Part shown: piece after piece, positions 49,489 to 64,000 of the stretch | How positions within the stretch are numbered: the stretch's first letter is position 1 | Layout: the number at the start of each line of letters is the position of its first letter | Source of the DNA: a virus | Taxonomy: Duplodnaviria > Caudoviricetes | Length of the DNA: 64,000 nucleotides | Reading direction: 5' to 3' (one strand) | IMG/VR virus record: IMGVR_UViG_3300018089_000001 | Coordinates: 121,487 to 185,486 of that record | Position numbers and translations under genes: made by a program | The notes under the pieces: generated by a model | Database searches by the model: none | Seen by the model: the letters and a program-made list of their open reading frames with translations, nothing else | What the model was told of the DNA's origin: nothing

Positions 49489-49564
49489 TTTTGGATTATA
49501 AGCCGGCCGGGAACAGCGGGAGACGGACGCGCCCGCCAAGGCGACAGCGATATAATCTTTCTTG

Positions 49565-49981
49565 ATGGGGAACCCCGGAAACCAGCGGATACTCTTCCTC
49601 GACGACTCCGCGTGGCGACACGCGGAGTTCCTGAGGGTCACCGAGTCGAGGGGACTCGAGATCCACAGGGCCCACACCGCGGAGGAAGCGATCAGGCTCC
49701 TAAACGAGCGTGAGTTCCACCAGGTCTTCCTGGACCACGACCTCGACGAGTCCGACGTCATGTGTCGGGTGGGAGAGCCCACGGTCGCTGCCACCGGCAT
49801 GGCGGTGGTGGACCACATCCTCAGCATGGAGCGACCCCCGCTCAACGTGCTGATCCACAGCTGCAACGCGCCCGCCGCCACCGAGATGCATCTCAGGCTC
49901 GACCGGCATCCCGCCGGGATCAGCGTCAGCCGCTGCCCGTTCCCGTTCCTACTGCAGGCGCTGGGGTCGCAGAGACGCTGA
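49565..49981 (+). CDS. cyclic-phosphate-processing receiver-domain protein
   Basis: ILFLDD, FLDHDL, TG, IHSCN..M; divergent TATAAT promoter. Confidence 0.8.
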   Translation: MGNPGNQRILFLDDSAWRHAEFLRVTESRGLEIHRAHTAEEAIRLLNEREFHQVFLDHDLDESDVMCRVGEPTVAATGMAVVDHILSMERPPLNVLIHSCNAPAATEMHLRLDRHPAGISVSRCPFPFLLQALGSQRR

Positions 49982-50360
49982 CGCGTCCGACGCCGGGTCT
50001 AAACCGGACGTGCCAGGAGGGCACGTCCGGGCGACCCGCCGCCCTGTAAGTCTCGAGCCTCCGGTGTCCGTCCCAGAGCGACGGCGGGCCGTCGAGCGTG
50101 GCAGCGACCAGCGGGACGGAGTCGACGTCACCCCGCCTACCCAGGAGCTGACGCAGGGCGGGGTACCCACCGGGACGCACGGCGTGTCCCCGCTTCGGGT
50201 TCGTCCGCCACCCCGTCGACAGTGGGATCCGCTCGAAGGAGACCTCGCAGTCGAGGCGGCCCGGCGCGAGCGCCGCCTCGATCCGCGCCGCCGTGAACTC
50301 CGCGATGGCCCTCGCGTCGTCGTCGTACCGGCGGTCCCAGGTCCTCACGGCTGAGGCCAT
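49926..50360 (-). CDS. ParB-N-like protein
   Basis: LWDGHRRL. Confidence 0.55.
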   Translation of the reverse strand: MASAVRTWDRRYDDDARAIAEFTAARIEAALAPGRLDCEVSFERIPLSTGWRTNPKRGHAVRPGGYPALRQLLGRRGDVDSVPLVAATLDGPPSLWDGHRRLETYRAAGRPDVPSWHVRFRPGVGRVSVSATPAPAVGTGTGSG

Positions 50361-50400
50361 GAGGAGTCCGACGAGCTCACTCCGGCTGAGGGGGCGCCCG

Positions 50401-50655
50401 TCAGTAGACCTCAGGCTCGCCCTCCGCGGGTCCGGCCGACAGGCCGGACATCAGGTCGTCGTAGTCGTCCATCGTCAGGGTCCTCCCCTCGCCCGCCAGC
50501 GACTCGATCGCCTCCGCGAGCCGATGGAGCGCGACGTCCCCGCTGGCCTCCTCCCGGCTCCACTCGAGGAGCCTGATGAGGAGCTCCATGTCGACGGAGA
50601 GGCCGCGCGGCGCGCGGGCCTCCCGAAGCACGAACAGGCGGGAGACGCGGGTCAC
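50401..50655 (-). CDS. hypothetical protein
   Basis: DMELLIRLLEWSREE..DVALH. Confidence 0.55.
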   Translation of the reverse strand: MTRVSRLFVLREARAPRGLSVDMELLIRLLEWSREEASGDVALHRLAEAIESLAGEGRTLTMDDYDDLMSGLSAGPAEGEPEVY

Positions 50656-52727
50656 CGGCCCCTCCCCACGACCCTCATGATCTTGGCGAGGCCGGACTTC
50701 GGGGCGAAGTCCACGGGCTCCGTGTTGGGTCCCTCGTCCATGCCGTACATCGGGAGAAGTCGACCGATGCCGACGGGACCGCGCTTGGACGGATCGGGGG
50801 CCGGGTCCTCCTCGCAGTCGGCCACCGCGTCCTCCATCATCGCGACCAGACGGGTCGCGGCGCTCTCGTTCGCGGCCGGTCCGCCCGTCTCGGGGTCACG
50901 CCCGTCGTGCTCGAAGACCGCCCGGGCCACAGTCAGGAACTTCTTGACCATGATGCGCGGGACCCCGCGGCGCAGCACGATCGTGTAGACGTCGTCGATG
51001 TTCGCGGCCCTCCGGATCTCACTGAAGAGGGGGTCGCTCGCGTCGAAGTCCTCGAAGCCCCTCGCCTTGGGCATGTCGGTCAGGATGTCGTACATCGCCG
51101 CCTCGGCGCGCAGGCCGTTCTCGTCGGGACGGGGCAGCCAATCGGGGACGGCTCCGGTCCCCAGCGCGCTGGGGACCGGAGCCTCTGGCTCTATCTCCTG
51201 CTCCTCCTCGGCCGGCTCGTCCTCGACGGGCTCGCCCTCCTCCTCCGGCTCCGCCGTCTCGTACTCCTCAGGCACCTCGAAGGCGTTCCCGAAGCCGAAG
51301 AGCGCGACGGAGAGGGCGTCGCGGAACCCCTTGCGGGGCCTGTCACCCCACGCGTCGGCCACCGCAGCGCTGAGGGCGTCCTCGTCCTCGGCCGAGGAGG
51401 CCGCCTCCCACAGCGGGTCGTCCGGGCCGACGCCGTACTCGTTCACGAGCCGATACATCGCCTGCTCAGGGGCGGAGCCGGTCGGATCCGTGGCGGGGGT
51501 CCAGTCCGGGAAGTCTCCGGCCGCGGCCTCCTCGGTCTCCCCCTCTTCCCCGGGGGCCTCCTCCTCGCCCCCCTCGCCGCGCATCTCGGCCTCGAGGTCG
51601 GGGCCGCCCTCGCTGGGCGGGTCGAGGAGGCTCGGCCAGTTCTCCGCGAGCCACTCGTGGATCCCGGCGTACTCGTCGTCGAACTGCTCGTCCCCCAGCG
51701 TCTGGAGCTCCACGCCGGAGTCCGGCGGGATCTCGTTGCCCATCGCGTCGGTGACCGTCGCGGACTCGCCGTCCCAGGTCACCCTACCGGGAGAGAGCCT
51801 CCCCTGGTAGCGGAGCATCGCCCGCAGCTCGATTCCCCCGGGGGCCTCCCCTCCCTCGTCACCGCCGACGTCGACGTCGGCGAACGGGCTGGCGGCGTCC
51901 GGTTGGGTCTTGTCGGCGGCGTCGTCCTCCCACTCCGCGGGGTCGACGTCGGCCTCCGCCTCCGGCTCCGGGGCGGGCTGGGGAGGACGCGGCCTGAAGC
52001 CCGGCCGGCCGGCCTGCGAGAGGTCCGTGCGCGGCTGGCCCACTTTGAACGGCGTGGCGGGCTCCTCGGGGGCCGCCGAGGCCCGGGCCGCCAGCTTCCT
52101 CTCCGCGTCCTGCACGTCCGCCTGGTCGGCCCGCCCGGAGTTGACCAGGTGCTGGCTAGCCACGAGCATGGCCTCGGCCCGCATGCGGGCCGGAAGCGTC
52201 ATGACGGACCGCATGACGGAGTTCATGTCCGTCATGGCGCGCCACTGCGCCAGCTGCCTCTTCAGCTCGATCCCGCCCATGTACTCCTCGAGCTTGTCGA
52301 GGGCGTCGCCGACGGGGTCCTCGGCCTCCATCTCCGGGGCCTCTTCCCCCGTGGGGGCCTGCCGCAGCGGGGCGTCGAGGCCCCACTGGTACGAGGCGGC
52401 GCCCCTGAATCCACGGCGACCCGACCTGGTGATGACCAGCGGACGATCCTGGGAGAGGCCGTACCGCGCCTTGTCCCGGTACCGTTCCTTCGAGGACTTT
52501 GGGTCGTACTTCGCGACCCACTTGTTGAAGATGGTCGAGAACTGCTGCTCGGTGCCCATGCCTCCGGCCGCGGTGTAGATCCGGTAGGCGTCGCGGATCG
52601 TGAAGCTCCGCGGCTCCCCGGTCTCCGGGTCGATCGGCTGCTTCGCCGCCCAATCAAGCACCGCCCAGGAGGCGTCCCCGCGGGTCCGGGCCATCTCAAT
52701 GAGATCGTAGAGCTCGAGGAGCGTCAT
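50652..52727 (-). CDS. large acidic protein with internal repeat (possible virion/ejection protein)
   Basis: 691 aa, Glu/Pro-rich linkers, two DWxP..AMY..DPL repeats. Confidence 0.75.
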   Translation of the reverse strand: MTLLELYDLIEMARTRGDASWAVLDWAAKQPIDPETGEPRSFTIRDAYRIYTAAGGMGTEQQFSTIFNKWVAKYDPKSSKERYRDKARYGLSQDRPLVITRSGRRGFRGAASYQWGLDAPLRQAPTGEEAPEMEAEDPVGDALDKLEEYMGGIELKRQLAQWRAMTDMNSVMRSVMTLPARMRAEAMLVASQHLVNSGRADQADVQDAERKLAARASAAPEEPATPFKVGQPRTDLSQAGRPGFRPRPPQPAPEPEAEADVDPAEWEDDAADKTQPDAASPFADVDVGGDEGGEAPGGIELRAMLRYQGRLSPGRVTWDGESATVTDAMGNEIPPDSGVELQTLGDEQFDDEYAGIHEWLAENWPSLLDPPSEGGPDLEAEMRGEGGEEEAPGEEGETEEAAAGDFPDWTPATDPTGSAPEQAMYRLVNEYGVGPDDPLWEAASSAEDEDALSAAVADAWGDRPRKGFRDALSVALFGFGNAFEVPEEYETAEPEEEGEPVEDEPAEEEQEIEPEAPVPSALGTGAVPDWLPRPDENGLRAEAAMYDILTDMPKARGFEDFDASDPLFSEIRRAANIDDVYTIVLRRGVPRIMVKKFLTVARAVFEHDGRDPETGGPAANESAATRLVAMMEDAVADCEEDPAPDPSKRGPVGIGRLLPMYGMDEGPNTEPVDFAPKSGLAKIMRVVGRGR

Positions 52728-52774
52728 GTCACTGCAAGGTATGCCGCGGATGGTTGGTGTGGTACCATAGGGGG

Positions 52775-53098
52775 ATGTTGATAGCCATGACGGTCGTCGC
52801 CTCCCTGTTCGCCTACGCCTTCGTCGGGGGCGTCGTCCACCGGGCGCTCGTCCTCCACGGGAACCGCGTGACGGGCAACGTCGAGGACGTCGCCGCCTGC
52901 ATCTGGCCGCTCATCCCGGTCATGTTCCTGGTCAGCTGGACGTATTCGGTGCTGAGGTGGGCGTTCGTTCAGCCGATCCGGGCCGGCCAGCTGGTACCCG
53001 AGCTCCCGGGTCGGCTGCTCGCGTGGGCCCACTCACGGGAATGGAGGCCGGGCCGAAGACGGGGCGACCGCATCCCGCCGGCCCGCGTGGTCCGGTGA
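52775..53098 (+). CDS. membrane protein
   Basis: Two TM segments; TGGTACCAT-N6-ATG. Confidence 0.6.
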   Translation: MLIAMTVVASLFAYAFVGGVVHRALVLHGNRVTGNVEDVAACIWPLIPVMFLVSWTYSVLRWAFVQPIRAGQLVPELPGRLLAWAHSREWRPGRRRGDRIPPARVVR

Positions 53099-53314
53099 GG
53101 CGGCCCTGCCCGAACTGCGGGGCCGAGGTCCCGGTCGTCCCGGGCTTCCGCAACTTCACGGTGGCCCACGTCCGGCCTTCGCCGGCGCCGGTCGTCGGGC
53201 AGCGGAAACTCGTGTTCTGCCTTCCCGCGGTCCAGCGGGGTCCGGGCTGGGAGCTGCCCGAGTCGACCCGGCGGCAGGCCTGGGAGGACGACTCGCTCTG
53301 GGACGGGCTCTAGC

Positions 53315-53848
53315 TCAGGGACCCCAGGCGATCAGGTTGCCGTGCCCACGCCCGCGGTCGTCGAAGCGGGTCCCGAAGACGCGGGTCGACATCCCGATCG
53401 ACTCGAAGTCCGCCGGGGCGGGACCCCAGTGGTGGAACTCGGGGTCCGCGGGGTCCCTCCCTTGCGGCTGGAACCCCCACGGGCAGGAGACCAGCACGCG
53501 GCGGTGCTCCCCCATGAGGCGGGTCAGGCACGCCAGGGCGTCGGCCCGGGGGACGTGCTCGGGACCCTCGTCCCAGAAAACCAGGCCGAACGAGCGGCCG
53601 GCGAGGGGCCTCGGGTCCCGGACGTCACCCCTGATGAGGTCGGACGTGTGGCGCGTCGCGGACGCGAGTCCGGACTCCATGACGTCCATGACGGCCAGGG
53701 AGGGCCCGCCGAGGGCGGCCCGGAACTCGGTGGCCCACCACGGACTGGTGTCGCCCCGATGGCCGACGTAGAGGAGGGAGCCCACGGGGGCGCGGGCGGG
53801 GGCCCACTCGCGGGCCAGGAAGTCGAAGGCGAGGCCGACGGTCGGCAT
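53315..53848 (-). CDS. methyltransferase-like protein
   Basis: LLYVG, MDV, GDVR, PEHV, SCPWG. Confidence 0.65.
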   Translation of the reverse strand: MPTVGLAFDFLAREWAPARAPVGSLLYVGHRGDTSPWWATEFRAALGGPSLAVMDVMESGLASATRHTSDLIRGDVRDPRPLAGRSFGLVFWDEGPEHVPRADALACLTRLMGEHRRVLVSCPWGFQPQGRDPADPEFHHWGPAPADFESIGMSTRVFGTRFDDRGRGHGNLIAWGP

Positions 53849-53882
53849 GATGGACAGGTATGGCCGGTGGTAGGATGGGGAC

Positions 53883-54251
53883 ATGCCACCACCGCCATCC
53901 AGGGGAGACCTGGAGGACATCTTCTGGTCCGCCGCGCTGGCCCTGCTCAGCGGACGGGCAGCCGTCATCCACGGGGACATGGGGCGTGAGTCCCGCTACC
54001 CGCAGGTCAGGCTGGACATGCGCCTGGTCATGGCCGACCGGGACCCCGTACCCGACGACCCGCGGCAGCTCCGGCTGGCGGTGGCGACGATGCTGGCCGA
54101 ACGGATCGGGATGCGGCTGACACCGACGGCCCCGCCGACGACCGGCACAGTGTCCGTGTCAGCCCCCATCGCGCCGGACCAGCCGACCCAGCCGCCCCGG
54201 AGGGACGAGGACGACAGCCGGACCAGGTTCTCGCTGCTGGAGCTCGACTGA
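53883..54251 (+). CDS. hypothetical protein
   Basis: TGGTAGGAT-N6-ATG; ends RFSLLELD. Confidence 0.6.
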   Translation: MPPPPSRGDLEDIFWSAALALLSGRAAVIHGDMGRESRYPQVRLDMRLVMADRDPVPDDPRQLRLAVATMLAERIGMRLTPTAPPTTGTVSVSAPIAPDQPTQPPRRDEDDSRTRFSLLELD

Positions 54252-54481
54252 TGGCGGGGACGACGGCCGAGGGGATGCGGGCCGCGCTGCGGGCCGCGAT
54301 CACGGACAGGGACAGCGCGGCGTACGTGGAGGGGATGGAGGCCCTGCTGGAGACCGAGGAGGGACCGGGGTGGGCCACGGAGGGACTCGCGGAGGACGAC
54401 CTGGAGTGGACCTCGCGCCACATGCACCTCCGGACGACGGAGGACGGGAGGGTCGTGATGTCCCTCCGGGTGCTCGATTGA
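54251..54481 (+). CDS. hypothetical protein
   Basis: Coupled ORF. Confidence 0.55.
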   Translation: MAGTTAEGMRAALRAAITDRDSAAYVEGMEALLETEEGPGWATEGLAEDDLEWTSRHMHLRTTEDGRVVMSLRVLD

Positions 54482-54777
54482 CGGGCGCCGGGTGCTGGCG
54501 GGGGGCCGACCCGGGCTGCTCGGCCGGCTGCAACACGGCCTGGGGATGGGCCTGCAGCTGCGGGGCCCAGCACGACCGGGAGACGTGCGGCGCGGAAAAC
54601 TGCCGGCGCTGCTGGGAGGCCGAGTGGCCGCGGCAGCGGGCCCAGTTCATCGTGAGGGTGACTCCTGATGGCCGGGAGCTCTTCCAGTGCGTCGGGTTCG
54701 ACCGGTGCGGGTGGTGGGTGGAGATCAGGGACGGGGCGTGCGAGGAGTGCGCCCAGACAAAAGGAGATGAGGAGTGA
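54478..54777 (+). CDS. Cys-rich hypothetical protein
   Basis: Multiple CxxC; TTG start coupled. Confidence 0.5.
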   Translation: MTGAGCWRGADPGCSAGCNTAWGWACSCGAQHDRETCGAENCRRCWEAEWPRQRAQFIVRVTPDGRELFQCVGFDRCGWWVEIRDGACEECAQTKGDEE

Positions 54778-54956
54778 AAAGACAATTGACTGCGCGTGAG
54801 CACGCGCTCAACCACATGCAGCAGAAATTCTGTAGGATCCTGAAGCAAAGGCCTGTCGAAGAACAGGTGGAAGGGATGAGGCAGTTGCTGGGGGACATCC
54901 TCGATTTTCTGCGCAAGCATGATGTCTCCCCTCCTCAACAAGTTGAGGTAGAATAA
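54774..54956 (+). CDS. small hypothetical protein (lower GC)
   Basis: GAGGAG SD, GTG start. Confidence 0.5.
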   Translation: MKRQLTAREHALNHMQQKFCRILKQRPVEEQVEGMRQLLGDILDFLRKHDVSPPQQVEVE

Positions 54957-54960
54957 CCAC

Positions 54961-55260
54961 ATGCCGAAGACACTCGCGGCCGCCCTCGTCATGGCGGCCC
55001 TCCTCCCCCTCCCGTCATGCAAGCGCGTGCCCTCCGCCGAGGTCCCGCCCCCGGTGGCCAGGGGCTCCTGCCTGGTCAACCGCTGGTACGGCGGGGTCGC
55101 CGTCGACCAGGACTGCAGCATGGGCGGCTACGCCTGGCACTGCACCCAGGCGATCGGGGACGACTCCCCGGCGGCCTGCACCCGCGGCCCCGAGGTCGGG
55201 GAGGCCCCGGCCCGGGTCGTCCCGAACCCGACGCCCGCCGACGCGGGGGCGAACCCGTGA
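54961..55260 (+). CDS. putative lipoprotein
   Basis: Signal peptide ending LPSC. Confidence 0.55.
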   Translation: MPKTLAAALVMAALLPLPSCKRVPSAEVPPPVARGSCLVNRWYGGVAVDQDCSMGGYAWHCTQAIGDDSPAACTRGPEVGEAPARVVPNPTPADAGANP

Positions 55261-55514
55261 GGACCGCGTACGTCGTGACGTGGTGCGGGTACCTGGCCGA
55301 CCCCAAGCCGACCCCCCGCCTGACGCCGGACCGCCCGGCCGCGGTCGCCGAGGTCGAGCGCCTCCTCGGCCGGGAGACCGTCCGGGCGCTCCCGGAGAAC
55401 ACGCGCGCGGTCCGGGAGTTCCTCGAGGGCCGGCAGTCCTGCCTGATCGCCTGGTCGGCCCCCTTCCCCCACGGGGGGCCGTTCGCCTTCGTGACCGAGG
55501 TGGAGGTCCCGTGA
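55257..55514 (+). CDS. hypothetical protein
   Basis: Coupled GTGA. Confidence 0.55.
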   Translation: MRTAYVVTWCGYLADPKPTPRLTPDRPAAVAEVERLLGRETVRALPENTRAVREFLEGRQSCLIAWSAPFPHGGPFAFVTEVEVP

Positions 55515-55966
55515 CGGACCGCGAGTGCTTCGAGGCCGTCCGGGCCCACCTGCTGGCCCAGGGACGACGGGCCACCCTCGGGGACACCGGCCGCTGCCGG
55601 TACCGCGTCGTCGAGCCCGACGGGACGGTGCTGCGGTGCGCCGTGGGGTGCCTGGTCCCGGAGGAGGAGTACGTCGAGGGCATCGAGGGCTGCCCGGCCC
55701 ACGACATCGCGCCCTTCCTGACGGACGCGGGGGTGCTGCCCCCGTGCGCCGCGCGTCCCGATGCCCACGCCCGGCGGCTGACGCTACTCCAGCGGCTCCA
55801 GCGGGTCCACGACGCGGTCGACCCCGCGGGCTGGCGGGACGCGCTGGACCGCCAGGCGGGATCGTTCCACCCCGACGGGGCCCTCGCGGCGCTGCCCACG
55901 TGGGACGAGACGGTCGCGGCCGCGGGCCTCATCGGCCTCATCGGCCATCCGGTCCCCCCGAAGTGA
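55511..55966 (+). CDS. hypothetical phage protein
   Basis: HLLAQG..CRYR..CAVGCLVP..LQRVHD. Confidence 0.65.
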   Translation: MTDRECFEAVRAHLLAQGRRATLGDTGRCRYRVVEPDGTVLRCAVGCLVPEEEYVEGIEGCPAHDIAPFLTDAGVLPPCAARPDAHARRLTLLQRLQRVHDAVDPAGWRDALDRQAGSFHPDGALAALPTWDETVAAAGLIGLIGHPVPPK

Positions 55967-55984
55967 CCTCCCAGGAGCCCGGCG

Positions 55985-56350
55985 CGCGGGAGGGGAAAGC
56001 CGCCGAGGCCTCACGGGAAAACCCCCCGGGACCGTCGCGGGGAAAGAGGAGCCGAGGCGGTCCCGCGGGAAAACGGGGTCCCGGCTTCAGTGACAGGAAA
56101 GCCGTCGCGGTCCCGCGGGAAAAACTCAGGCCACGGCGCGCGGGGGGTAAGCCGGGCCCCAGGAATACCAATATTCCCCATGAACCCAATACCATTATTG
56201 GTATTGAAATTTTTGGAATTCAACTATTTAAAATTGGAATATAATATACATTCATAATAAAGGAAAGGGTATATAGGTATTAATTTTGGTATTATAATTT
56301 TGGTATTTCAATAGGAATTATTAGAATTTAATATCAACCCATAATAAAAC
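55985..56350. other. GGAAA repeats followed by an extreme AT-rich island (origin/packaging/UP-like)
   Basis: Six GGAAA(AA) units, then ~190 nt almost all A/T with TTGGTATT/TTGGAAT repeats. Confidence 0.6.
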
Positions 56351-56452
56351 GCAACCCAGTGGAGGGGTGGTCCGTCGTGGGCTCGAGTCACCGCACACCG
56401 GCCGAACCGGGATGTCCCCGGGGTCGGACCGGAGCCAGGAGACTCAAGCACC

Positions 56453-57007
56453 ATGTCGACCAAGATCCAGACCCCCGCCTACGCCCGCTTCGTGAACCAG
56501 CTCGTCGCCAAGTTCCAGTCCCTCGACATCCCCCTCGTCCCCGTGGCCGAGGAGGGCGCCAAGGACGGGTTCCACGGCAACGAGGGGTGGGTCCTGTTCC
56601 AGGTGATCGGCACCGAGGACAAGCTCTACGCGCGGCGGACCAGGGGCGGTGACCCCACGACGATCCACACCAGCATCCCCTTCGACCTCATCCCCCCGGC
56701 CCTCGTCAAGGAGGACCTCCGGGGCAAGGTGGGGAAGATCGAGGCCTCGATCAAGGTCGACCTCGAGGGGATCGCCTCTGGGCTGCTCCCGGTGTACAGG
56801 GACCGCCTCCTCAACGGCGACAAGCTCCGCGCCTCCAAGGCGCCCGTCCGGCGCGCCTCCGGGGGCGCCTCCCCGGCGGCCCTCGACTCCTCCGAGCGCG
56901 CCGAGCTGGACGCCCTCCGGGCCGCCCAGGCCGCCCAGAAGGCCCAGTTGGAGCGGGAGGAGGCCGACCGCCGGGCGGCCGCCGAGGCCTCGGTCTTCCA
57001 GGCCTGA
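56453..57007 (+). CDS. hypothetical early protein
   Basis: AGGAG SD; strongly C3-biased codons. Confidence 0.75.
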   Translation: MSTKIQTPAYARFVNQLVAKFQSLDIPLVPVAEEGAKDGFHGNEGWVLFQVIGTEDKLYARRTRGGDPTTIHTSIPFDLIPPALVKEDLRGKVGKIEASIKVDLEGIASGLLPVYRDRLLNGDKLRASKAPVRRASGGASPAALDSSERAELDALRAAQAAQKAQLEREEADRRAAAEASVFQA

Positions 57008-57213
57008 GGCCCCGCCTCCGGGCGTCGCAACCGTGAGGCGCCTCACCGAAAGACCCCGGCCCTCCGCCTGGGGGAAAGCGGTGTTTCCGGCGCCCGCTGT
57101 CACTGAACAACATTCGAGGCCCCTCCCGGGCCACTGACCAGGAGCACGACCGGCCCTTGGCCGTCCCTCCTCCTGGCCGGTAACGCGGGAGAGACCGCGA
57201 GAAGGAGGCCGCC

Positions 57214-57390
57214 GTGGCCGAGACGAGCACGAACGAGTCCGAGACCCTCCGCTTCGCCCGGGCCCTCCGCGCGGAGATCGACCGGGAGTACTACCACGCC
57301 GACTCCGGCCCGGTCTCCGAGGCCCTGCTGGCCGTCCGGGACGCGATCGACCGGGCGATGGAGTCGGCCCTCGGGGTGGTCCGGGACTAG
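57214..57390 (+). CDS. small hypothetical protein
   Basis: AAGGAGG SD + GTG. Confidence 0.6.
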   Translation: MAETSTNESETLRFARALRAEIDREYYHADSGPVSEALLAVRDAIDRAMESALGVVRD

Positions 57391-57769
57391 GAGCGACGGG
57401 GCCCGGAGGGGGCTCTGAGGGACTCCGGGGGGCTCTGAGGGGCCTTCACAGCTTTCAACTCCGCTTGAAAGTTGCGGGGTCTCCCGGGCCCGACTGGGCC
57501 GCCGGGCCTCGGGGACTCCCCCTCCCCCTCCCATCCCCCACCGGCGCCACGGTCCCGGCCGCCCCGCGGCCCGTCCGGGGGGACGGGCCGCGGGGCGGCC
57601 GGTCCGCCGCTCCGGGTCCCCCGCGCGCGCGTGGGGGGTAAATATGATGCCGTCCCCCTCTGGGGAGCCGGGGCCCGTCCGCGGGTCAAACCGGTCACCA
57701 TCCCACGCGGGGGGGACGGCCTCCGATCGGGTCCGGAGTCGACTTCCCTCCGGACCGGACAGGAGCGAC

Positions 57770-58000
57770 ATGCACTACGTCGTCCAGCACCTCCGGCTCG
57801 ACCGGCGGGACCGGGAGACCGGCCACCCCGTGGTCGACCTCCGGCTCTACGCGGACCCCGCCGTCGCCTGGAGCGAGGCGGCCCGGCTCGCGGGCATGCA
57901 CGGGCTCGGGGCCCACGGGACCGACGGCTCGGGCCGGCCCCCGGCGTACGCCGGGCCGGCCGGGTCGGTCGACGTCGTCCCGCTGGAGGTCCGGTCGTGA
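57770..58000 (+). CDS. hypothetical early protein
   Basis: After repeat leader. Confidence 0.65.
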   Translation: MHYVVQHLRLDRRDRETGHPVVDLRLYADPAVAWSEAARLAGMHGLGAHGTDGSGRPPAYAGPAGSVDVVPLEVRS

Positions 58001-58398
58001 CCCGGGCCACGCTCTCCGTGCGGAGCCCCCTCGGGTACGGGGACGTCGGGGACGGGTGGCGGCGGCGCCGCTCTTGCGGGGGGAACTGAGGTGGAGGGGG
58101 CCCTCGGTTTCGTCCGCTGGTACGTGCTGGCCCGGCTGTCGGCGGTGGCCCTGGAGCTCGGCCGGTCCGCGGACGGGAGCCCCCCGCCTGACGCGGCGGT
58201 CTGCGAGGCCTGGTACGCGCTCAGCGACCTCGCCTACGTCGCGCTGCGGGACGGGTGATGCCTCCGGGACGGAGGCGAGGGGAGGGCCGGACGTGTTGCG
58301 GGGCCACGGGTCCCGCCGTTCCGATCGGGTCCGGGAACGGGCGTATGGTCCGCATCCGCGGATCGCTCGCCCCCTCCCCCGGGTCCGACAGGAGCGAC

Positions 58399-58599
58399 AT
58401 GGGTGACATCGATGTTGTCGCGGCCGGCGCCGCGCCGGCGGTTCCGACGGAGCGGGGGCGGCGGGCGGCCGCCGGGGAGGAGGCCGCGGCGCGGTGGTCC
58501 GCCGCGTGGCGGGCCTTCGTCGACGGCGCGGTCCGGTGGTACGGGGCCCGCTGCCTGGCCGGGGAGGGGCCCGAGCCTCTCCTCCGGGACCCCCGGTGA
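58399..58599 (+). CDS. hypothetical early protein
   Basis: After repeat leader. Confidence 0.55.
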   Translation: MGDIDVVAAGAAPAVPTERGRRAAAGEEAAARWSAAWRAFVDGAVRWYGARCLAGEGPEPLLRDPR

Positions 58600-58986
58600 C
58601 GCGGTGGGCGCTCGCCGCGTGCGCCGTCCTCGGGCTCGTCGGGTACGCGGCGGCGGGGCCCGGGACGGGCGGCCCCCGCGCCGCGGTCGACGAGGCCTGC
58701 CTGTTCCTGGCGGGCCTGCTCGTCCTCGTCGGGGTCCTCGGGGCCGGGCCGTGAGGGCCCGCGGCTCCGGGGCGCCGCCGGCGGTCGCCGGGGTCGTCGT
58801 CCGGGTCGTCCACGACCCGGGCTCCGGCGCCGAGGCCGCGCTGGCCGCCCTCCTGGTCGAGCTCGCCGACCGGCTGCGGCGGGTCCCGGGCGTGGCGGCG
58901 GTGCGGGTCTCCCTCGGGTGAGGGGGGGGGCCCGCCGCTCCGATCGGGCCCCGGGTCCACATCCCCCGGGACCGGACAGGAGCGAG

Positions 58987-59304
58987 ATGACCAAGAGCGA
59001 GCGGTACGCCGTGACCGTCTTCCACGGCGAGTCGGAGGCCATCCACGCGGTGGAGGGGCCCGCGGTCGGGGACCTGACCCGGGCCGTGCTGGGGTGCATC
59101 CCCGGCTGCCGGGTGCTGGTGGGCCCGGAGGGCGACGCCCGGTCGCCCGCGGACACCCTCGGGGGCCTGGTCCGGACCCTGGTCGGGATGATGGCCCGGG
59201 GGGTCGACCCGGCCACGCCGGTCCGGGTGGCCGCATACGGGGCGACGGAGCCGCGGCGGCCGCGGCCGGACGCGGAGCACGCCCGCGGGCGGGTGCTGCT
59301 GTGA
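58987..59304 (+). CDS. hypothetical early protein
   Basis: After repeat leader. Confidence 0.65.
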   Translation: MTKSERYAVTVFHGESEAIHAVEGPAVGDLTRAVLGCIPGCRVLVGPEGDARSPADTLGGLVRTLVGMMARGVDPATPVRVAAYGATEPRRPRPDAEHARGRVLL

Positions 59305-59427
59305 ACCGGGTCGCGGTCGAGCGGCGCTGCCACTGAGGGCTCCGGCCGCCGGACGGCGGTCCCGGGGACGCCGGGGGGGCACCCCCGCCGCGCCCGGGGG
59401 TTCCGTCCCCCGAGAGGAGAGGATGAG

Positions 59428-59583
59428 ATGCGAACTGTCCTGATCGTGTTGGGGCTCGCCGCGTGCGGGCCCGCGCCGGTGGCCCGCACGGCCGCCCTCC
59501 GCGTGACCGTCACCGCCGTCTGCCCGGCCGAGCCCGCCCGTCCGGTCGCTCCGGCCCCGGCGGCGGCTCCGGTCCGCCGGTGA
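59428..59583 (+). CDS. small lipoprotein
   Basis: MRTVLIVLGLAAC lipobox; GAGGAGAGG SD. Confidence 0.55.
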   Translation: MRTVLIVLGLAACGPAPVARTAALRVTVTAVCPAEPARPVAPAPAAAPVRR

Positions 59584-59963
59584 GGGCCCGGGAGGACCGG
59601 GGTTGGGTCTGGAAGTCCCCCCCGTCCGACGCCGGGGACGCGGGGGACGTCGAGCGGGAGCTCGCCCTCAGGATGCGGATCGAGGCGCTCCGCCGCGACG
59701 CGGTGCGGGCCGTCGGGCGGGCCATGGCCGCCGTCCGGGCGGGGCGCCCGTGATCCTCCTCCTGGAGGTCGTGGGCGCCCTGTTCGGGCTCGGGCTGCTC
59801 GGCTCGGGGGCCCTGCTGGTGCTGTGGGCGCTCTGGGAGCTCGTCTCGGCGCCGCTCCGGCGGGACGGGTGATGTTCCCGGGCGGGGGCCGCGGGCCCGC
59901 GGGACGGTCTGAGGGGACTCCCTCCGGTCGTCCCGCGGTCCACACGGACCGAGGAGGAACGCG

Positions 59964-60485
59964 ATGTCTCAGAATGACGCGGGGCCGCTCGCGGCGGCCA
60001 TCGGGGCGCTGCTGGCGGACCCGAGCGCGCGGCTGCTGCCGCTGATCCTGAACCCCCCGGCCTTCCCGGGGGAGGAGGAGTGGGCGTTCTACGACGCCGT
60101 GGTCCGGCCGCTGCTGGAGCGGCACGGGTGGGTGCTCGAGGACGAGCACGTCCCGATCGCCTGCGCGGAGCACTGGCGGATCGAGCTGGACAACATCAAC
60201 GAGAGCGACGTGGACGAGGGGCCGCTCGGGTCGATCGCGGCGGCGCTGCTGCTGATGGAGCCCGTCTCCGACGCGGCCCGGGCGTACCGGGCCGACCCGG
60301 CGACGCTCACGCCGCTCGCCGTGGCCGTGACGCCGCTGGTCCGGGCGGTGATCGCGGAGGTCGGGCGACTGGGCCGGGCCGCGCCCCTGAACGTGGACGT
60401 CCCCGGCGAGGGCCTGTCCGCGTACGGGGCCTCGGACATGTTCGCGGCGGTCGTCCGGGACGCGGGGGGCGGGTCAAAGGACTGA
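59964..60485 (+). CDS. hypothetical protein (MSQNDAGP N-terminus)
   Basis: GAGGAGG SD. Confidence 0.7.
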   Translation: MSQNDAGPLAAAIGALLADPSARLLPLILNPPAFPGEEEWAFYDAVVRPLLERHGWVLEDEHVPIACAEHWRIELDNINESDVDEGPLGSIAAALLLMEPVSDAARAYRADPATLTPLAVAVTPLVRAVIAEVGRLGRAAPLNVDVPGEGLSAYGASDMFAAVVRDAGGGSKD

Positions 60486-60547
60486 CCGGGGGAGCCGGTC
60501 GCGGCTCCGATTGCGGGCCCGTTGGGCCCGGAACAGGAGACACGACG

Positions 60548-60931
60548 ATGGACGGGAAGCTCAGGAGCGACTATCCGATCGACCTCAATGCCCTAGAGGC
60601 CCTCGCGGGGGAGATCCGGGACGACGTGGGGGGATACGCGGCGACGCTGCGGTTCATGGTGGACCTGCGGTACTACCAGGTCTGCCGGGGACTGCGGGTG
60701 TCCCGGGAGGGTGGACTGGACAGGTCCGCCAACCGGGGCTGGACCTCGGCCCACATGGACGAGCTGCTGGCGAGGGCCCGGGCCGAGGCGGGCCGCCTCG
60801 ACCGGTTCCTGGCGGCCCTCTCCCCGGCCGACTTCGCCGGCGGGCCGACGTTCCTCGAGAACCTCGAGGCGTGGGTGGCGGACGGGATGCCCGGACCGGT
60901 CGAGGACGGGCCCACCCCCTGGCCGGACTGA
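60548..60931 (+). CDS. hypothetical early protein
   Basis: After repeat leader. Confidence 0.7.
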   Translation: MDGKLRSDYPIDLNALEALAGEIRDDVGGYAATLRFMVDLRYYQVCRGLRVSREGGLDRSANRGWTSAHMDELLARARAEAGRLDRFLAALSPADFAGGPTFLENLEAWVADGMPGPVEDGPTPWPD

Positions 60932-61020
60932 CGGGACGGAGGGCCCGCGGGGCCCACGGGAGCGTCGGAGCGGGGACGCTCCGGCGCCCCCGTGGTCCGA
61001 ACGGACCGAGGGAGGAAGCG

Positions 61021-61260
61021 ATGTCTCAGAATGACGCGGGGCCGCGGGGGCCGGCCGTCGGCTCCCCGACGGCCGGGCGGAGGCGGCTGGCGCTGCGGCC
61101 GCTGACGCTGCGCGGGCTCACGCTGCGGGACGACGGGGCCGGTCCGGCCCCGAGCGGCCGGGGGTGCACGGGCGTCGGCTGCACGGGCGTCGGCTGCACC
61201 GGCCGGGGATGCAGCGGGGGCGGGTGCTCGGGCGGATGCGACACCCGGAGGGGGTGCTGA
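61021..61260 (+). CDS. lanthipeptide-precursor-like peptide
   Basis: GGAGG SD; leader RRRLALRPLTLRGLT; core of seven S/T-x2-3-C units. Confidence 0.65.
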   Translation: MSQNDAGPRGPAVGSPTAGRRRLALRPLTLRGLTLRDDGAGPAPSGRGCTGVGCTGVGCTGRGCSGGGCSGGCDTRRGC

Positions 61261-61329
61261 CGGCGGGGGAGGGGGCGGCGCCCCCGATCGGGTCCCGGAC
61301 GACGCCGGGACCGGACAGGAGGAACCGCG

Positions 61330-61791
61330 ATGAGTGAGAAGAGAAGCGCCGCGGCGGCGCTGCTGCAGGCCCTGCTGCACAGGCTGGACGCCCGTGAGAC
61401 GGACGCGGCGAACAAGCGTCACCGGGCGCTGGACCCGGACACGAGGGCCGTCGAGGGCGCCCGGCTGTCCGTCTTCAGCGAGCTGCGGGAGGACGTCCGG
61501 GCCGTCCTCGGGCAGCTCACCGGGGAGGAGCCGCCGGCCCGGCGGTATCCGCTCCGGACCGTCAGTGTCACGTGGCACACGACCCACCCGAACGTCGCCC
61601 GCCGGCGGATCGACCACCTGCGCCAGGCCCATCGGATGGACGCGGCGACCCCCGAGGGGCTCCTCGGGCGGGCCCTTTGGGCCGTCGAGTGTTACCTCCG
61701 ATCGGACGACTACTCCGGTCTGGAGGAGGCCGAGGCGCTGGTGCTGCGGCTGGCGGAGCTGGCCGGGCTCCCGCTGCCGGGGGACCCGTGA
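61330..61791 (+). CDS. hypothetical early protein
   Basis: AGGAGG SD in repeat leader. Confidence 0.7.
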   Translation: MSEKRSAAAALLQALLHRLDARETDAANKRHRALDPDTRAVEGARLSVFSELREDVRAVLGQLTGEEPPARRYPLRTVSVTWHTTHPNVARRRIDHLRQAHRMDAATPEGLLGRALWAVECYLRSDDYSGLEEAEALVLRLAELAGLPLPGDP

Positions 61792-62165
61792 CGTCGGGGC
61801 CGCTGTACGCCGCGCTGCGGCACGCGGGCCGCAGGGGGTCATACCACGTGACCCTGGACGTGTACGCCGACCCGGAGTCGGCGGCGCTGGTCCTCCTGCT
61901 CGAGCGGGACGGCCACCGCGGGATCGGACGGGCAGCGCCCCCCGGACCGGGACGGGTCGCCGTGCCCTCCCCGTACCCGGGGTATGAGATGGACGTCGAT
62001 CCGCTCGAGTTGGCCGCCATGGCGGCCCAGCTGCGGGCCGGGGCGCCGCTGTCCACGCGTCGGGACCCCGACGACCCGGACTACTCGGAGGAGGACGGGT
62101 GGGGCGAGGCCCACCTGATCGCGGTCTCCCCACCGATGCCGGGCCTTCCGGGGGCGCCGCCGTGA
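61788..62165 (+). CDS. hypothetical protein
   Basis: Coupled GTGA. Confidence 0.55.
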   Translation: MTSGPLYAALRHAGRRGSYHVTLDVYADPESAALVLLLERDGHRGIGRAAPPGPGRVAVPSPYPGYEMDVDPLELAAMAAQLRAGAPLSTRRDPDDPDYSEEDGWGEAHLIAVSPPMPGLPGAPP

Positions 62166-62377
62166 CGGTCTACGTCCTCTGGACGCCGTCCGCGGTCTGG
62201 ATCGCCCCGGGCGTCACGGCCGCGGACGCCGCGGACCAGATGCTGCGGGCGATGGGCCCGGACCACGAGCACCGCCGGTTCCTCGAGGACGGCGCGTACC
62301 GCCGGAACCTGGTGGGCACGCCGAACGCGGTGAGGGTCGTCCGGACGTTCGCCGCGTCGGACCTCGCGTACTACTAG
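62162..62377 (+). CDS. hypothetical protein
   Basis: Coupled GTGA. Confidence 0.55.
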   Translation: MTVYVLWTPSAVWIAPGVTAADAADQMLRAMGPDHEHRRFLEDGAYRRNLVGTPNAVRVVRTFAASDLAYY

Positions 62378-62395
62378 GGGGCCGTCGCTCCGGTC

Positions 62396-62468
62396 GTTTA
62401 TGGAATTTCATTCCATGTTTTTGGAATTTATTGTTCTTCCATAATACACCGGATTGGTGTGTTGTTGG
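62396..62468. other. second AT-rich island
   Basis: TGGAATTT x2, shared with the 56.2 kb island. Confidence 0.55.
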
Positions 62469-62548
62469 GGTGTCGCGCGCGTAGCGTCGCGCCGATCGGA
62501 CGTCGGAAAAGGGCGAGTCCTTCTCCCCGGCGTCGGACAGGAGCGACG

Positions 62549-63256
62549 ATGGCGATGAAGCTGAGGATCGTGATGTACGACGACGCTCTACCGGAGCATC
62601 TGCGGATCGAGCCATCCGGTGGGATCGGGATCGAGCTCGACCCGCGCGTCGAGTCCCGGATCATCCAGGAGGAGGTGTGGACGCAGACGGTCTGGCCCGA
62701 GGGGGAGTCGCCGCTGGCGGAGATGCTCGCGCAAGCGACGGACCCGACGGGTCCGGGCGAAGCGGTTCGGAGGATGTTCCTGGTGGTCCGCCACGTGCCG
62801 CACTCCCCGTCGGGAATCATGGCGTTCGCGTCCCCGGCGGAGGCCGGGGAGTACCGGGACCCCGACGGGGGGACCTTCGAGACCGTCACGGAGAGGGGGG
62901 TCCGGCGGGTCCTCGGGACCTGGGCGACGGTGGACCCGCGCGGGTTGGAGCCCGGGCCGAGGGCCCTGAGCGAGTGCGCCTGCTCCGGCCTGGGACCGGG
63001 GCTCGCCTACCCGACCCACCCGCCGGAGAGCGGGACCCGGTTGGCCGGACCCCGGCTCTCCCAGTGGTGGCCCGGGACGTACCTGCTCTACCAGCGGGGC
63101 ATCGAGTACTTCCGTCCCGGCGAGGAGCCGGACTGGCTGGCGCGGCCGGGTTCACCGCCGGCCCTTCGCCACAGGGTGGGCATGCTGCCTGCCTACCGCG
63201 ACGAGGCCACGGACGAGCTGGTGCCCGTGCTGCGGGTCCCAGAGAACCAGGCCTGA
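62549..63256 (+). CDS. hypothetical early protein
   Basis: After repeat leader. Confidence 0.7.
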   Translation: MAMKLRIVMYDDALPEHLRIEPSGGIGIELDPRVESRIIQEEVWTQTVWPEGESPLAEMLAQATDPTGPGEAVRRMFLVVRHVPHSPSGIMAFASPAEAGEYRDPDGGTFETVTERGVRRVLGTWATVDPRGLEPGPRALSECACSGLGPGLAYPTHPPESGTRLAGPRLSQWWPGTYLLYQRGIEYFRPGEEPDWLARPGSPPALRHRVGMLPAYRDEATDELVPVLRVPENQA

Positions 63257-63465
63257 TGCGGGGTCGAATCCAGGTAGTCCGGATCGGTGCGATCGCGGTC
63301 GCTCTCGTCCCGGACACCCCGGAGCGGGTCGAGGCCGGCCACTGGGGCGCGCACGTGACGCGGTGCGGCAAGGGCGCGCCGGTCCGGGTGTTCGTCCGGG
63401 CGCTCGGCGGGACCCTGGTCATCCAACACATCGAGGCCGACCGGCTCGCCTCGATCGGGGGGTGA
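63256..63465 (+). CDS. hypothetical protein
   Basis: Coupled TGATG. Confidence 0.5.
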   Translation: MRGRIQVVRIGAIAVALVPDTPERVEAGHWGAHVTRCGKGAPVRVFVRALGGTLVIQHIEADRLASIGG

Positions 63466-63554
63466 GGACGGGGAGGCCCACGGGCCCACGGGATCGTCGG
63501 AGGGAGCGTCCTCCGGGGACCCCGTGGTCCAATGGACCGGAAGGAGAGGAACGC

Positions 63555-64000
63555 ATGGAGAAGACGAGGGAGCTCGTGACGCAGGCGCTACGGGCGACGA
63601 TCGATCAACTGGCCGAGCTGCGACAGCTGCTCGACGGGGGGCTCGTGTCGGATGCGGAGGTGGCCGTCGCGGCGGTCGACCTGATGGCGACCCGTTGGAT
63701 GACATCGGAGATGCGGGCCCTGTACCCGCAGTCCGTCGGGGCCGTGACGCCCACGCGGCCGACGCTGGTCCACTTCCTGCCCGACGACCGGACGATCGGG
63801 CCGTTCCTCGACGAGGCCGCGGCGTCGCGGTGGCTGCACGACGTGCCGAACGCGCTGTTCGACAGCGTCGAGCGGCTCGAGCACGCGCGGGCCAACGCCG
63901 ACGTCCTGCTCTCCAAGCTGGAGGGACCGGACACGCCGCCGGACGCCCCGGTCCCGGAGATCACGTACCCCTCGGAGTGGAACGCGGACCTCGAGCCGGA
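63555..64000 (+). CDS. hypothetical protein (partial)
   Basis: MEKTRELVTQ..; hairpin + AGGAGAGG SD. Confidence 0.65.
   Translation, partial: MEKTRELVTQALRATIDQLAELRQLLDGGLVSDAEVAVAAVDLMATRWMTSEMRALYPQSVGAVTPTRPTLVHFLPDDRTIGPFLDEAAASRWLHDVPNALFDSVERLEHARANADVLLSKLEGPDTPPDAPVPEITYPSEWNADLEP

What the first reader, a model, noticed from the sequence alone, without database searches (positions are those of the whole stretch)
61021..61260. Phage-encoded lanthipeptide-precursor-like peptide without a nearby synthetase
Seen: MSQNDAGP...RRRLALRPLTLRGLTLRDDGA-GPAP-SGRGC-TGVGC-TGVGC-TGRGC-SGGGC-SGGC-D-TRRGC; each of seven Cys has an upstream Ser/Thr. Known: a basic LxLxxxTLxxL leader plus S/T-xxx-C repeats is typical of class I lanthipeptide precursors. 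Inference: hijacks or titrates host LanB/LanC, or yields a phage RiPP. A metal-binding peptide is an alternative.
Basis: partly seen in the sequence, partly recalled or inferred. Interest (0 to 1): 0.75.

Follow-up and report, generated by a model that had tools for sequence, protein, structure and literature searches.

The report
Orphan lanthipeptide-like precursor gene in phage
A large soil phage carries a real, conserved 79-codon gene that looks like the precursor of a ring-stitched bacterial peptide (lanthipeptide), but the assembled 185 kb of the phage has none of the enzymes to modify it, so it probably depends on or interferes with host enzymes; this is untested.

Summary
Window 61021-61260 (+) is a 79-codon ORF with a GGAGG ribosome site and 94% GC at third codon positions. 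All 7 Cys have Ser/Thr 4 or 3 residues upstream.

Only two other protein clusters in billions are true relatives. Both come from soil metagenome contigs: one is clearly a related phage, the other sits beside a gene of a phage DNA-modification family. All three keep an RRR-L-x-L leader, five [S/T]-G-x-x-C pentads, SGGC and a final T...C. The conserved residues use different codons, so selection acts on the peptide, not on the 15-nt DNA repeat.

The leader resembles the LxLxKx5L leader of class I lanthipeptide precursors weakly but in an order-specific way. It fails the curated NCBIfam model for that leader.

No LanB, LanC, LanM, YcaO, radical-SAM, MNIO or kinase gene was found in the 185-kb contig. 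The contig ends 2.7 kb downstream and is about 91% complete.

My best reading is an orphan precursor that host enzymes process, or that jams them (confidence about 0.4). The main rival is an unmodified metal-binding peptide.

Unchecked notes from this scan describe similar orphan precursors in other phages.

The parts
60934..61020 (+). Structured 5' leader module: a long bulged hairpin, a GGTCC-N4-GGACC hairpin, then GGAGG at 61011-61015. Related copies lie at 59877-59963 and 63466-63553.
   Evidence: Direct repeats; alignment. Fold is -60.7 kcal/mol, z = -3.5. The consensus fold has 22 pairs, 5 of them with compensatory changes. No Rfam family matches.
61021..61260 (+). The peptide gene: 79 codons plus TGA (protein P0005).
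   Evidence: ORF and translation; GC3 0.94. Two homologue clusters show a purifying-selection codon pattern.
61021..61047 (+). First 8-9 codons (MSQNDAGP). They were duplicated together with the 5' module and are shared with the unrelated 173-aa gene at 59964.
   Evidence: The homologues P0002 and P0004 lack this N-terminus.
61078..61152 (+). Leader region, residues 20-44: RRR-L-A-L-R-P-L-T-L-R-G-L ... GAGPAP. It aligns to the LxLxKx5L leader of class I lanthipeptide precursors. Part of it is a 15-nt tandem repeat (61082-61128).
61153..61257 (+). Core region, residues 45-79: five [S/T]-G-x-x-C pentads, SGGC, then D-T-R-R-G-C. The 15-nt tandem repeat lies at 61155-61217.

Best explanation
The gene encodes a stand-alone ('orphan') precursor-type peptide of a rare family so far seen only on phage or phage-like contigs.

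The N-terminal part is a recognition leader of the class I lanthipeptide LxLxKx5L type, with the motif Lys lost. The C-terminal 35 residues are a substrate-like core made of six back-to-back [S/T]-G-x-x-C or S-G-G-C units and a last T-x3-C.

If a LanB-type dehydratase and a LanC-type cyclase act on it, each Ser/Thr would be dehydrated and joined to the Cys 3-4 residues downstream. The product would be a string of up to seven small thioether rings.

The assembled phage contig encodes no such enzymes. The peptide would therefore be processed in trans by host enzymes, or would occupy them.

Shown: the gene is real, the family exists, the conservation pattern is periodic, the leader resemblance is weak but order-specific, and the enzymes are absent from the contig.

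Inferred: binding to a host enzyme, dehydration, ring formation and any biological effect.
For: Real gene:
- Ribosome site and GC3 0.94.
- Two homologue clusters at 45-59% identity, in contigs of 62% and 73% GC.
- 16-24 of 34-38 identical residues per sequence pair use different codons.

Periodic conservation:
- S/T, the next Gly and Cys are conserved; the two inner positions are free.
- The number of units is the same in all three sequences, with no indel over 29 columns.
- S and T interchange at two positions, so the hydroxyl group is what is kept.

Leader resemblance:
- The family profile hit one place in 401 Actinomycetota genomes (E 5.9e-5). That place is a true class I precursor (NF038153, 30.3 bits) in a lanA-lanA-lanC-lanB-S8 protease cluster.
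- The same cluster type recurs on four further contigs (L104, L105, L106 and an ENA contig without DNA).
- hhalign of the family against 32 such precursors gives P 4.6e-4 over 27 columns.
- Leader against leader scores 15.9, versus 6.2 +/- 1.5 (maximum 12.4) in 300 column shuffles.
- 1 of 3000 residue shuffles matches the real score.

Other:
- No confident fold, as expected of a precursor: AF2 pLDDT 46.8, ESM Atlas 0.27.
- Precursors encoded far from their enzyme are known for prochlorosins (PMC7268733).
Against: - No hit to NF038153 or to any Pfam, NCBIfam or PHROG model for any of the three peptides.
- A leader-only HMM scores most true L1a precursors near zero (median 1.6 bits, best 8.4). 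High-GC off-frame translations reach 9 bits.
- An off-frame fragment of the phage itself scores 16.8 bits with the full profile.
- The motif Lys is P/A/A in the three peptides, and there is no Gly-Gly site.
- In none of the three contexts is an enzyme gene next to the peptide gene.
- The host is unknown.
- hhalign probability is only 33%.
Confidence: 0.4

Rival explanations
1. The peptide is an unmodified cysteine-rich peptide that chelates metal (Zn, Cu, Fe) or buffers thiol/redox chemistry in the infected cell, like a metallothionein. The basic N-terminal part would serve another role, such as binding a host target.
For: The core is 20% Cys and rich in Gly, Ser and Thr. It has no predicted fold on its own. 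No modifying enzyme is encoded in the contig or beside either homologue. The gene sits in an arm of small ORFan cassettes.
Against: Metal binding explains conserved Cys. It does not explain why every Ser/Thr stays a hydroxyl residue and every following Gly is invariant, while the residues between vary freely. It also does not explain the order-specific leader resemblance. No metallothionein family matched at E <= 10.
Confidence: 0.28
2. The peptide is a precursor of another modified-peptide class, processed in trans. Two candidates: azole formation at the C-T and C-S dipeptides by a YcaO cyclodehydratase (microcin B17-like), or radical-SAM thioether links.
For: Every Cys is followed by Thr/Ser-Gly. 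G-C-S-G is a known bis-heterocycle site in microcin B17 (my own knowledge, not tested here). The LxLxKETL-type leader is also carried by TIGR04149 radical-SAM substrates: the true lanA of L099 hits that model weakly.
Against: No YcaO or radical-SAM gene is in the contig. The residue before Cys is variable (G, N, F, A, T), unlike the Gly preferred in microcin B17. The only bacterial look-alike found lies in a LanB/LanC cluster.
Confidence: 0.12
3. The peptide is a decoy. Its leader occupies a host dehydratase that makes an anti-phage lanthipeptide and so blocks a chemical defence. The final product does not matter.
For: Class I lanthipeptide clusters with anti-phage function are widespread in Actinobacteria (bioRxiv 10.1101/2024.06.26.600839). 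The gene lies in an arm of small cassette genes behind strong ribosome sites.
Against: The core differs from the lanthiphage motif TxDxCxxxCxxxC. The strings CSGGC, GCSG, RRRL and ETLR do not occur as peptide sequence in the stored supplements; GCTG occurs only inside DNA sequences. A decoy would not need a strictly conserved core. The host and its defences are unknown.
Confidence: 0.12
4. The ORF is not functional: either a chance frame over a tandem DNA repeat, or the real gene lies on the opposite strand (61026-61415).
For: 15-nt tandem repeats underlie much of the ORF. Many translated tandem repeats elsewhere mimic the core. The minus-strand ORF has GC3 0.88.
Against: The homologues keep the peptide while changing codons, and keep the leader and C-terminal motif that repeats alone do not give. 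The ribosome site is strong. All neighbouring genes are on the + strand.
Confidence: 0.05

Closest known systems
Class I lanthipeptide precursors (LanA) with the LxLxKx5L leader (NCBIfam NF038153 lant_leader_L1a, Pfam PF28317; Walker et al. 2020, PMC7268733). Example here: the Actinomycetota clusters in L099, L104, L105 and L106.
   Same: Both are short peptides with no fold of their own. The leader has Leu at the same three spacings and an (E)T-L-R-x-L stretch. The core has Ser/Thr 3-4 residues before Cys. The GC content of the source DNA is similar: 70-72% for the clusters against 72-75% for the phage arm.
   Different: The phage peptides fail the curated model. They lack the motif Lys and the Gly-Gly end, and carry RRR instead of KK. 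The core is a regular pentad repeat unlike any of the 32 relatives aligned. No lanB or lanC is nearby. The gene sits in a phage.
Prochlorosin-type precursors, encoded far from the single modifying enzyme that serves them
   Same: The precursor gene stands alone and would depend on an enzyme encoded elsewhere (PMC7268733 notes this for prochlorosins).
   Different: Prochlorosins are class II (LanM) substrates with Nif11 leaders, and both partners lie in one bacterial genome. Here the enzyme would belong to another genome, the host's.
Anti-phage class I lanthipeptides ('lanthiphages') of Actinobacteria (bioRxiv 10.1101/2024.06.26.600839)
   Same: Class I lanthipeptide chemistry tied to phage-host conflict in high-GC Actinobacteria.
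   Different: Those are host-encoded full clusters with the core motif TxDxCxxxCxxxC. No similarity to them was found.
Microcin B17 precursor McbA and other Gly/Cys/Ser-rich azole peptide precursors (my own knowledge)
   Same: A Gly-rich core with Cys-Ser and Cys-Thr dipeptides, and a leader plus core layout.
   Different: No YcaO, dehydrogenase or scaffold gene is present. The residue before Cys is not fixed as Gly. The leader type is different.
Metallothioneins
   Same: Small and Cys-rich, with Gly, Ser and Thr between the Cys, and unfolded without metal.
   Different: No family match. The peptide has a conserved basic leader, and strict conservation of Ser/Thr and Gly as well as Cys.

Membership tests
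Class I lanthipeptide precursor, LxLxKx5L (L1a) leader type | Scores above the curated cut-off of NF038153 (22 bits) | tested here: not met
   No NCBIfam hit for P0005, P0002 or P0004 even at E <= 10. The true lanA of L099 scores 30.3 bits in the same test.
Class I lanthipeptide precursor, LxLxKx5L (L1a) leader type | The L-x-L-x-K-x5-L motif in the leader | tested here: inconclusive
   The three hydrophobic positions are kept in all three peptides (the second is Val in P0002). The Lys is P, A, A. Profile-profile P is 4.6e-4 with probability 33%. None of 300 column shuffles is as good. The leader-only HMM gives a median of 1.6 bits on true members.
Class I lanthipeptide precursor, LxLxKx5L (L1a) leader type | [quoted passage not shown] | tested here: not met
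   GG is invariant in all 32 relatives. The window peptide has only G-A-G-P, and the two homologues have none.
Class I lanthipeptide precursor (any leader type) | Core with Ser/Thr and Cys at ring-forming distance | tested here: met
   All 7 Cys have S/T at -4 or -3, conserved in the homologues.
Class I lanthipeptide precursor (any leader type) | lanB and lanC in the same locus or genome | tested here: not met
   PF04738 and PF05147 give no match at E <= 1 in the 185-kb contig. The LanM domain search (PF13575) also found nothing, but its control found nothing anywhere, so that blank carries no weight. Neighbours of the homologues carry none. The contig is about 91% complete and ends 2.7 kb downstream.
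Class I lanthipeptide precursor (any leader type) | Dehydration and thioether rings in the product | not testable with these tools
   Needs mass spectrometry of the peptide from infected cells or from co-expression.
Lanthiphage (anti-phage class I lanthipeptide) precursors | Core motif TxDxCxxxCxxxC with a conserved Asp | tested here: not met
   The motif is given. The phage core has no such spacing. The protein strings do not occur in the stored supplements.
Azole-containing linear peptides (microcin B17 type) | YcaO cyclodehydratase available | tested here: not met
   PF02624 gives no match in the contig.
Radical-SAM-modified Cys-repeat peptides (SCIFF, CXXX-repeat, ranthipeptides) | Radical-SAM maturase, and a family-model hit for the peptide | tested here: not met
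   PF04055 gives no match. No NCBIfam hit for the peptides.
Metallothionein | Match to a metallothionein family; metal binding | tested here: inconclusive
   No Pfam hit at E <= 10. Metal binding cannot be tested here.

The most novel reading that the evidence does not exclude
Phages of high-GC soil bacteria carry orphan lanthipeptide-type precursors. These either use the host's own LanB/LanC to make a phage-specified multi-ring peptide, or jam a host lanthipeptide pathway that defends against phage. Either would be a peptide-level takeover of host natural-product machinery.
Probability: 0.15. Interest if true: 0.85.

Novelty: new variant of a known kind. Interest (0 to 1): 0.55.

Why it matters
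Modified peptides are usually treated as products of self-contained bacterial gene clusters. A phage gene that supplies only the substrate would imply one of two things: phages can redirect host peptide-modifying enzymes, or they can block them. That is directly testable by co-expression and mass spectrometry. It bears on the recent finding that Actinobacteria use class I lanthipeptides against phages.

The core is also of interest on its own. If modified, six or seven consecutive 4-5-residue rings with only the ring-forming residues conserved would be an unusually regular scaffold.

The case rests on three sequences and on a weak leader resemblance, so it is a lead, not a result.

Tried and rejected
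Searches that found nothing:
- Phage GenBank records (INPHARED), by DNA and by protein, for the peptide, its neighbour and the arm: no match.
- IMG/VR scans with the two neighbours and with the family alignment: no relatives.
- PDB sequence search: none.
- Rfam on 56-64 kb: none.
- Lanthiphage supplements: no matching peptide strings.

Hits rejected as spurious:
- The metagenome and genome pattern scans gave 14 loci. Two (L011, L012) were the known homologue contigs again. The other twelve (L009, L010, L013-L022) are only translated tandem repeats, with no leader or C-terminal motif.
- The whole-library HMMER hits P0001 and P0003 are Cys-free proteins.
- The pattern CCGATCGG-N10-40-GGACAGGAG in IMG/VR gave 72 single chance matches, and none holds a family member.
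- A second profile hit in the phage (16.8 bits) is an off-frame fragment without Cys.

Structure and complex prediction:
- AF2 (pLDDT 46.8) and the ESM Atlas model (0.27) give no usable fold, and the Atlas structure neighbours are meaningless at that confidence.
- Complex prediction of the peptide with the N-terminal 780 residues of an LxLxKx5L-type LanB gave no verdict (score 0.09 against a mark of 0.32). It counts neither way.

Expression:
- No RNA holder is listed. The only run holding the DNA is the probable source, a peat metagenome.

Readings considered and dropped:
- Tat or Sec signal reading of RRR-L-x-L: charged residues interrupt the hydrophobic stretch (sequence).
- Pentapeptide-repeat fold: no Pfam hit, only about six repeats, and the inward-facing position is variable.
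- The neighbour at 60545-60931 as a DinB-type thiol transferase: 17 bits, below the cut-off, and it has only one His.

Full report
Setting. The window is the last 64 kb of a 185,486-bp linear IMG/VR virus record rated about 91% complete. A baseplate wedge protein relates it distantly to T4-like myoviruses. The only public run that holds the stretch is a peat metagenome, probably the source. The first 50 kb of the window have 63% GC. The last 14 kb have 72-79%.

Independent Logan contigs of that run have the same depth on both sides of the GC jump (12.1 and 12.4). They break at about 49.8 and 51.15 kb, with a 1.4-kb piece of depth 9.7 between. The high-GC arm therefore most likely belongs to the phage, but the join is not bridged by one contig.

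The observation. GGAGG lies 5 nt before the ATG. GC at the three codon positions is 0.70/0.80/0.94. All neighbouring genes are small + strand ORFs with the same third-position signal. All 7 Cys have Ser/Thr at -4, or at -3 in SGGC; 3 of 20000 shuffles of the core do as well. In the window, part of the leader and the core are 15-nt tandem DNA repeats. On this sequence alone the regularity could be a by-product of repeat expansion.

The family. An exhaustive HMMER search of 1.84 billion representative proteins gave four hits. Two are Cys-free proteins and spurious. The other two are true relatives: P0002 (76 aa) and P0004 (106 aa). A word-indexed search of 5.8 billion clusters with the alignment found the same two and nothing else.

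All three peptides share these features:
- RRR followed by L/V-x-L/V and a further hydrophobic ladder;
- then, without any indel, five [S/T]-G-x-x-C pentads (the first Cys is Tyr in P0002);
- then S-G-G-C;
- then x-T-x3-4-C.

Over the pentads and SGGC, S/T is kept in 18/18 cells, with S and T interchanged at two positions. The next Gly is kept in 18/18 and Cys in 17/18. The two inner positions are identical in 0/5 and 1/5 columns.

Between pairs, 16-24 of the 34-38 identical residues use different codons, including AGC against TCG, TCC and TCA for Ser. The homologues sit in DNA of 73% and 62% GC. This is selection on a peptide, not a repeat artefact. It also excludes the minus-strand ORF. Twelve other loci from the pattern scans are only translated tandem repeats without leader or tail.

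Context of the relatives. P0002 lies on short soil contigs (L004-L006). There the gene is preceded and followed by the same CCGATCGG-hairpin-GGACAGGAGCGA cassette leader that separates genes in the window's arm. A neighbour on that contig is weakly like the window's 61330-61791 gene. That contig is a related phage.

P0004 lies on L007/L008, translationally coupled (ATGA overlap) to a 79-aa gene. It sits behind a 5-hmdU DNA kinase-like gene (PF18723, 4.4e-45), a family known from the thymidine-hypermodification pathways of phages. None of these contexts holds a peptide-modifying enzyme.

In the window the peptide gene is preceded by a different leader module. That module was duplicated together with the first eight codons (MSQNDAGP) and is shared with the unrelated gene at 59964. 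So the family-level peptide starts at about the RRR.

Enzymes. Six Pfam models gave no match at E <= 1 anywhere in the 185 kb: LanC (PF05147), the LanB N-terminal domain (PF04738), YcaO (PF02624), radical SAM (PF04055), MNIO (PF05114) and protein kinase (PF00069). The LanM domain model (PF13575) also found nothing, but it rang in no control genome, so that blank carries no weight. The neighbours and other arm ORFs have no Pfam or PHROG family, apart from two sub-threshold hits and a cyclic-phosphate receiver domain at 49562. The gene lies 2.7 kb from the contig end and about 9% of the genome may be missing, so enzymes beyond the end cannot be excluded.

The leader. A six-frame search of 401 Actinomycetota genomes with the family profile gave one hit at E <= 1e-4. 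It is a peptide beginning M-E-R-R-K-L-E-L-N-K-E-T-L-R-N-L ... G-G. That peptide passes NCBIfam NF038153, the class I lanthipeptide leader L1a (30.3 bits against a cut-off of 22). It sits in a lanA-lanA-lanC-lanB-subtilase cluster. Only 2 of the same 401 genomes carry that leader at all. One of the two, G003, is unpublished; none of its sequence is used here. The same cluster type, with 2-6 tandem precursors, recurs on four other contigs: L104, L105, L106 and an ENA contig for which no DNA was fetched.

Profile-profile comparison of the three phage peptides with 32 such precursors aligns RRRLALRPLTLRGL to KKLELNKETLRxL, with P 4.6e-4 and probability 33%. Restricted to the leaders, the score is 15.9, against 6.2 +/- 1.5 (maximum 12.4) for 300 column shuffles. 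One of 3000 residue shuffles reaches the HMM score. This is the LxLxKx5L motif that Walker et al. describe as a second class I leader motif, next to the long-known FxLD (PMC7268733).

Four caveats apply:
- The phage peptides do not hit NF038153 themselves.
- The motif Lys is P/A/A and the Gly-Gly site is missing.
- A leader-only HMM scores most true members near zero.
- High-GC off-frame translations can reach similar scores.

I read the resemblance as real but weak. It could reflect distant descent from a host lanA or convergence on the same binding mode.

Structure. AF2 with the three-row alignment gives pLDDT 46.8, and the ESM Atlas model gives 0.27. So the peptide has no fold of its own. 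That fits both a precursor and a metal-free metallothionein.

Interpretation. The best-supported reading is an orphan, lanthipeptide-type precursor. Its leader would dock on a LanB-type dehydratase. Its core offers six or seven S/T-to-Cys pairs at typical ring distances. The strict conservation of the hydroxyl residue and the following Gly, beside free inner positions, is what a modification-driven core predicts. Metal binding alone does not predict it. Because the assembled phage contig has no enzymes, the peptide would act in trans on host machinery, either as a substrate or as a blocker. I give this about 0.4.

Rivals and their weights:
- an unmodified metal- or redox-active peptide (0.28);
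- another modification chemistry in trans, azoles at the C-T/C-S dipeptides or radical-SAM thioethers (0.12);
- a pure decoy against lanthipeptide-based anti-phage defence (0.12), attractive in view of the lanthiphage work but without any sequence link;
- a non-functional ORF (0.05).

Known and new. The thing works like, and may descend from, class I LanA precursors with LxLxKx5L leaders, but it fails their membership tests. The pentad-repeat core has no counterpart among the relatives aligned, or in Pfam, NCBIfam, PHROGs or the PDB. I found no paper describing stand-alone lanthipeptide-type precursors in phage genomes. Unchecked notes of this scan report similar orphan precursors with this leader type in other phages. 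If those hold, this is one more, divergent, case of a recurring pattern. I rate it a new variant of a known kind, with moderate interest: a clear, cheap experiment exists, but the present evidence is three sequences and a weak leader match.

Noticed in passing
window 59877-59963, 60934-61020, 63466-63553: Three copies of a structured 5' leader: a long bulged hairpin, a GGTCC-N4-GGACC hairpin and a GGAGG site. The fold has z = -3.5. The consensus has 22 pairs, 5 of them with compensatory changes. No Rfam family matches. Two copies extend into the coding sequence, giving the shared MSQNDAGP start.
   Followed up: partly
window 57723, 58321, 58940, 61284, 62492; L004 1320-1366 and 1620-1690: A CCGATCGG-hairpin-GGACAGGAG(CGA) cassette leader precedes most genes of the arm. 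Within this genome the combined cassette occurs only in the arm; CCGATCGG alone also occurs elsewhere. The same module flanks the peptide homologue on a soil contig from another sample, so it is conserved in a related phage.
   Followed up: partly
window 56180-56350 and 62398-62448: AT-rich islands (17-28% GC) with TTTTGGAATTT and CATAATA(AA) repeats inside 75% GC DNA. The TTTTGGAATTT motif occurs nowhere else in the 185-kb genome.
   Followed up: partly
window 49800-51200: GC rises from 63% to 72% here. Independent Logan contigs break at 49.8 and 51.15 kb, with a 1.4-kb piece of lower depth (9.7 against 12) between. Depth is equal on both sides, but the join is not spanned by one contig.
   Followed up: partly
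window 50000-64000: Nearly every ORF of the high-GC arm lacks any Pfam or PHROG family, including a 691-aa gene at 50652-52727 (-). Two ORFs give sub-threshold hits: 60545-60931 to DinB_2 (17 bits) and 61330-61791 to CecR_C (21.5 bits).
   Followed up: partly
L099 9451-14370; L104; L105; L106 7806-13517: Uncultured Actinomycetota carry class I lanthipeptide clusters with 2-6 tandem LxLxKx5L-GG precursors, then lanC and lanB. In L099, L104 and L106 (and on an ENA contig without DNA) a 920-975-aa ceramidase-like gene lies upstream on the other strand; L105 is too short to show this. This leader type was first described for Bacteroidetes.
   Followed up: partly
L007 3-1713: A sigma-54 activator-like fragment (GAFSGA, Fis-type HTH) overlaps by 11 nt the start of a 5-hmdU DNA kinase-like gene on the contig that holds the P0004 homologue. 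This is an odd pairing for a phage or mobile element.
   Followed up: no
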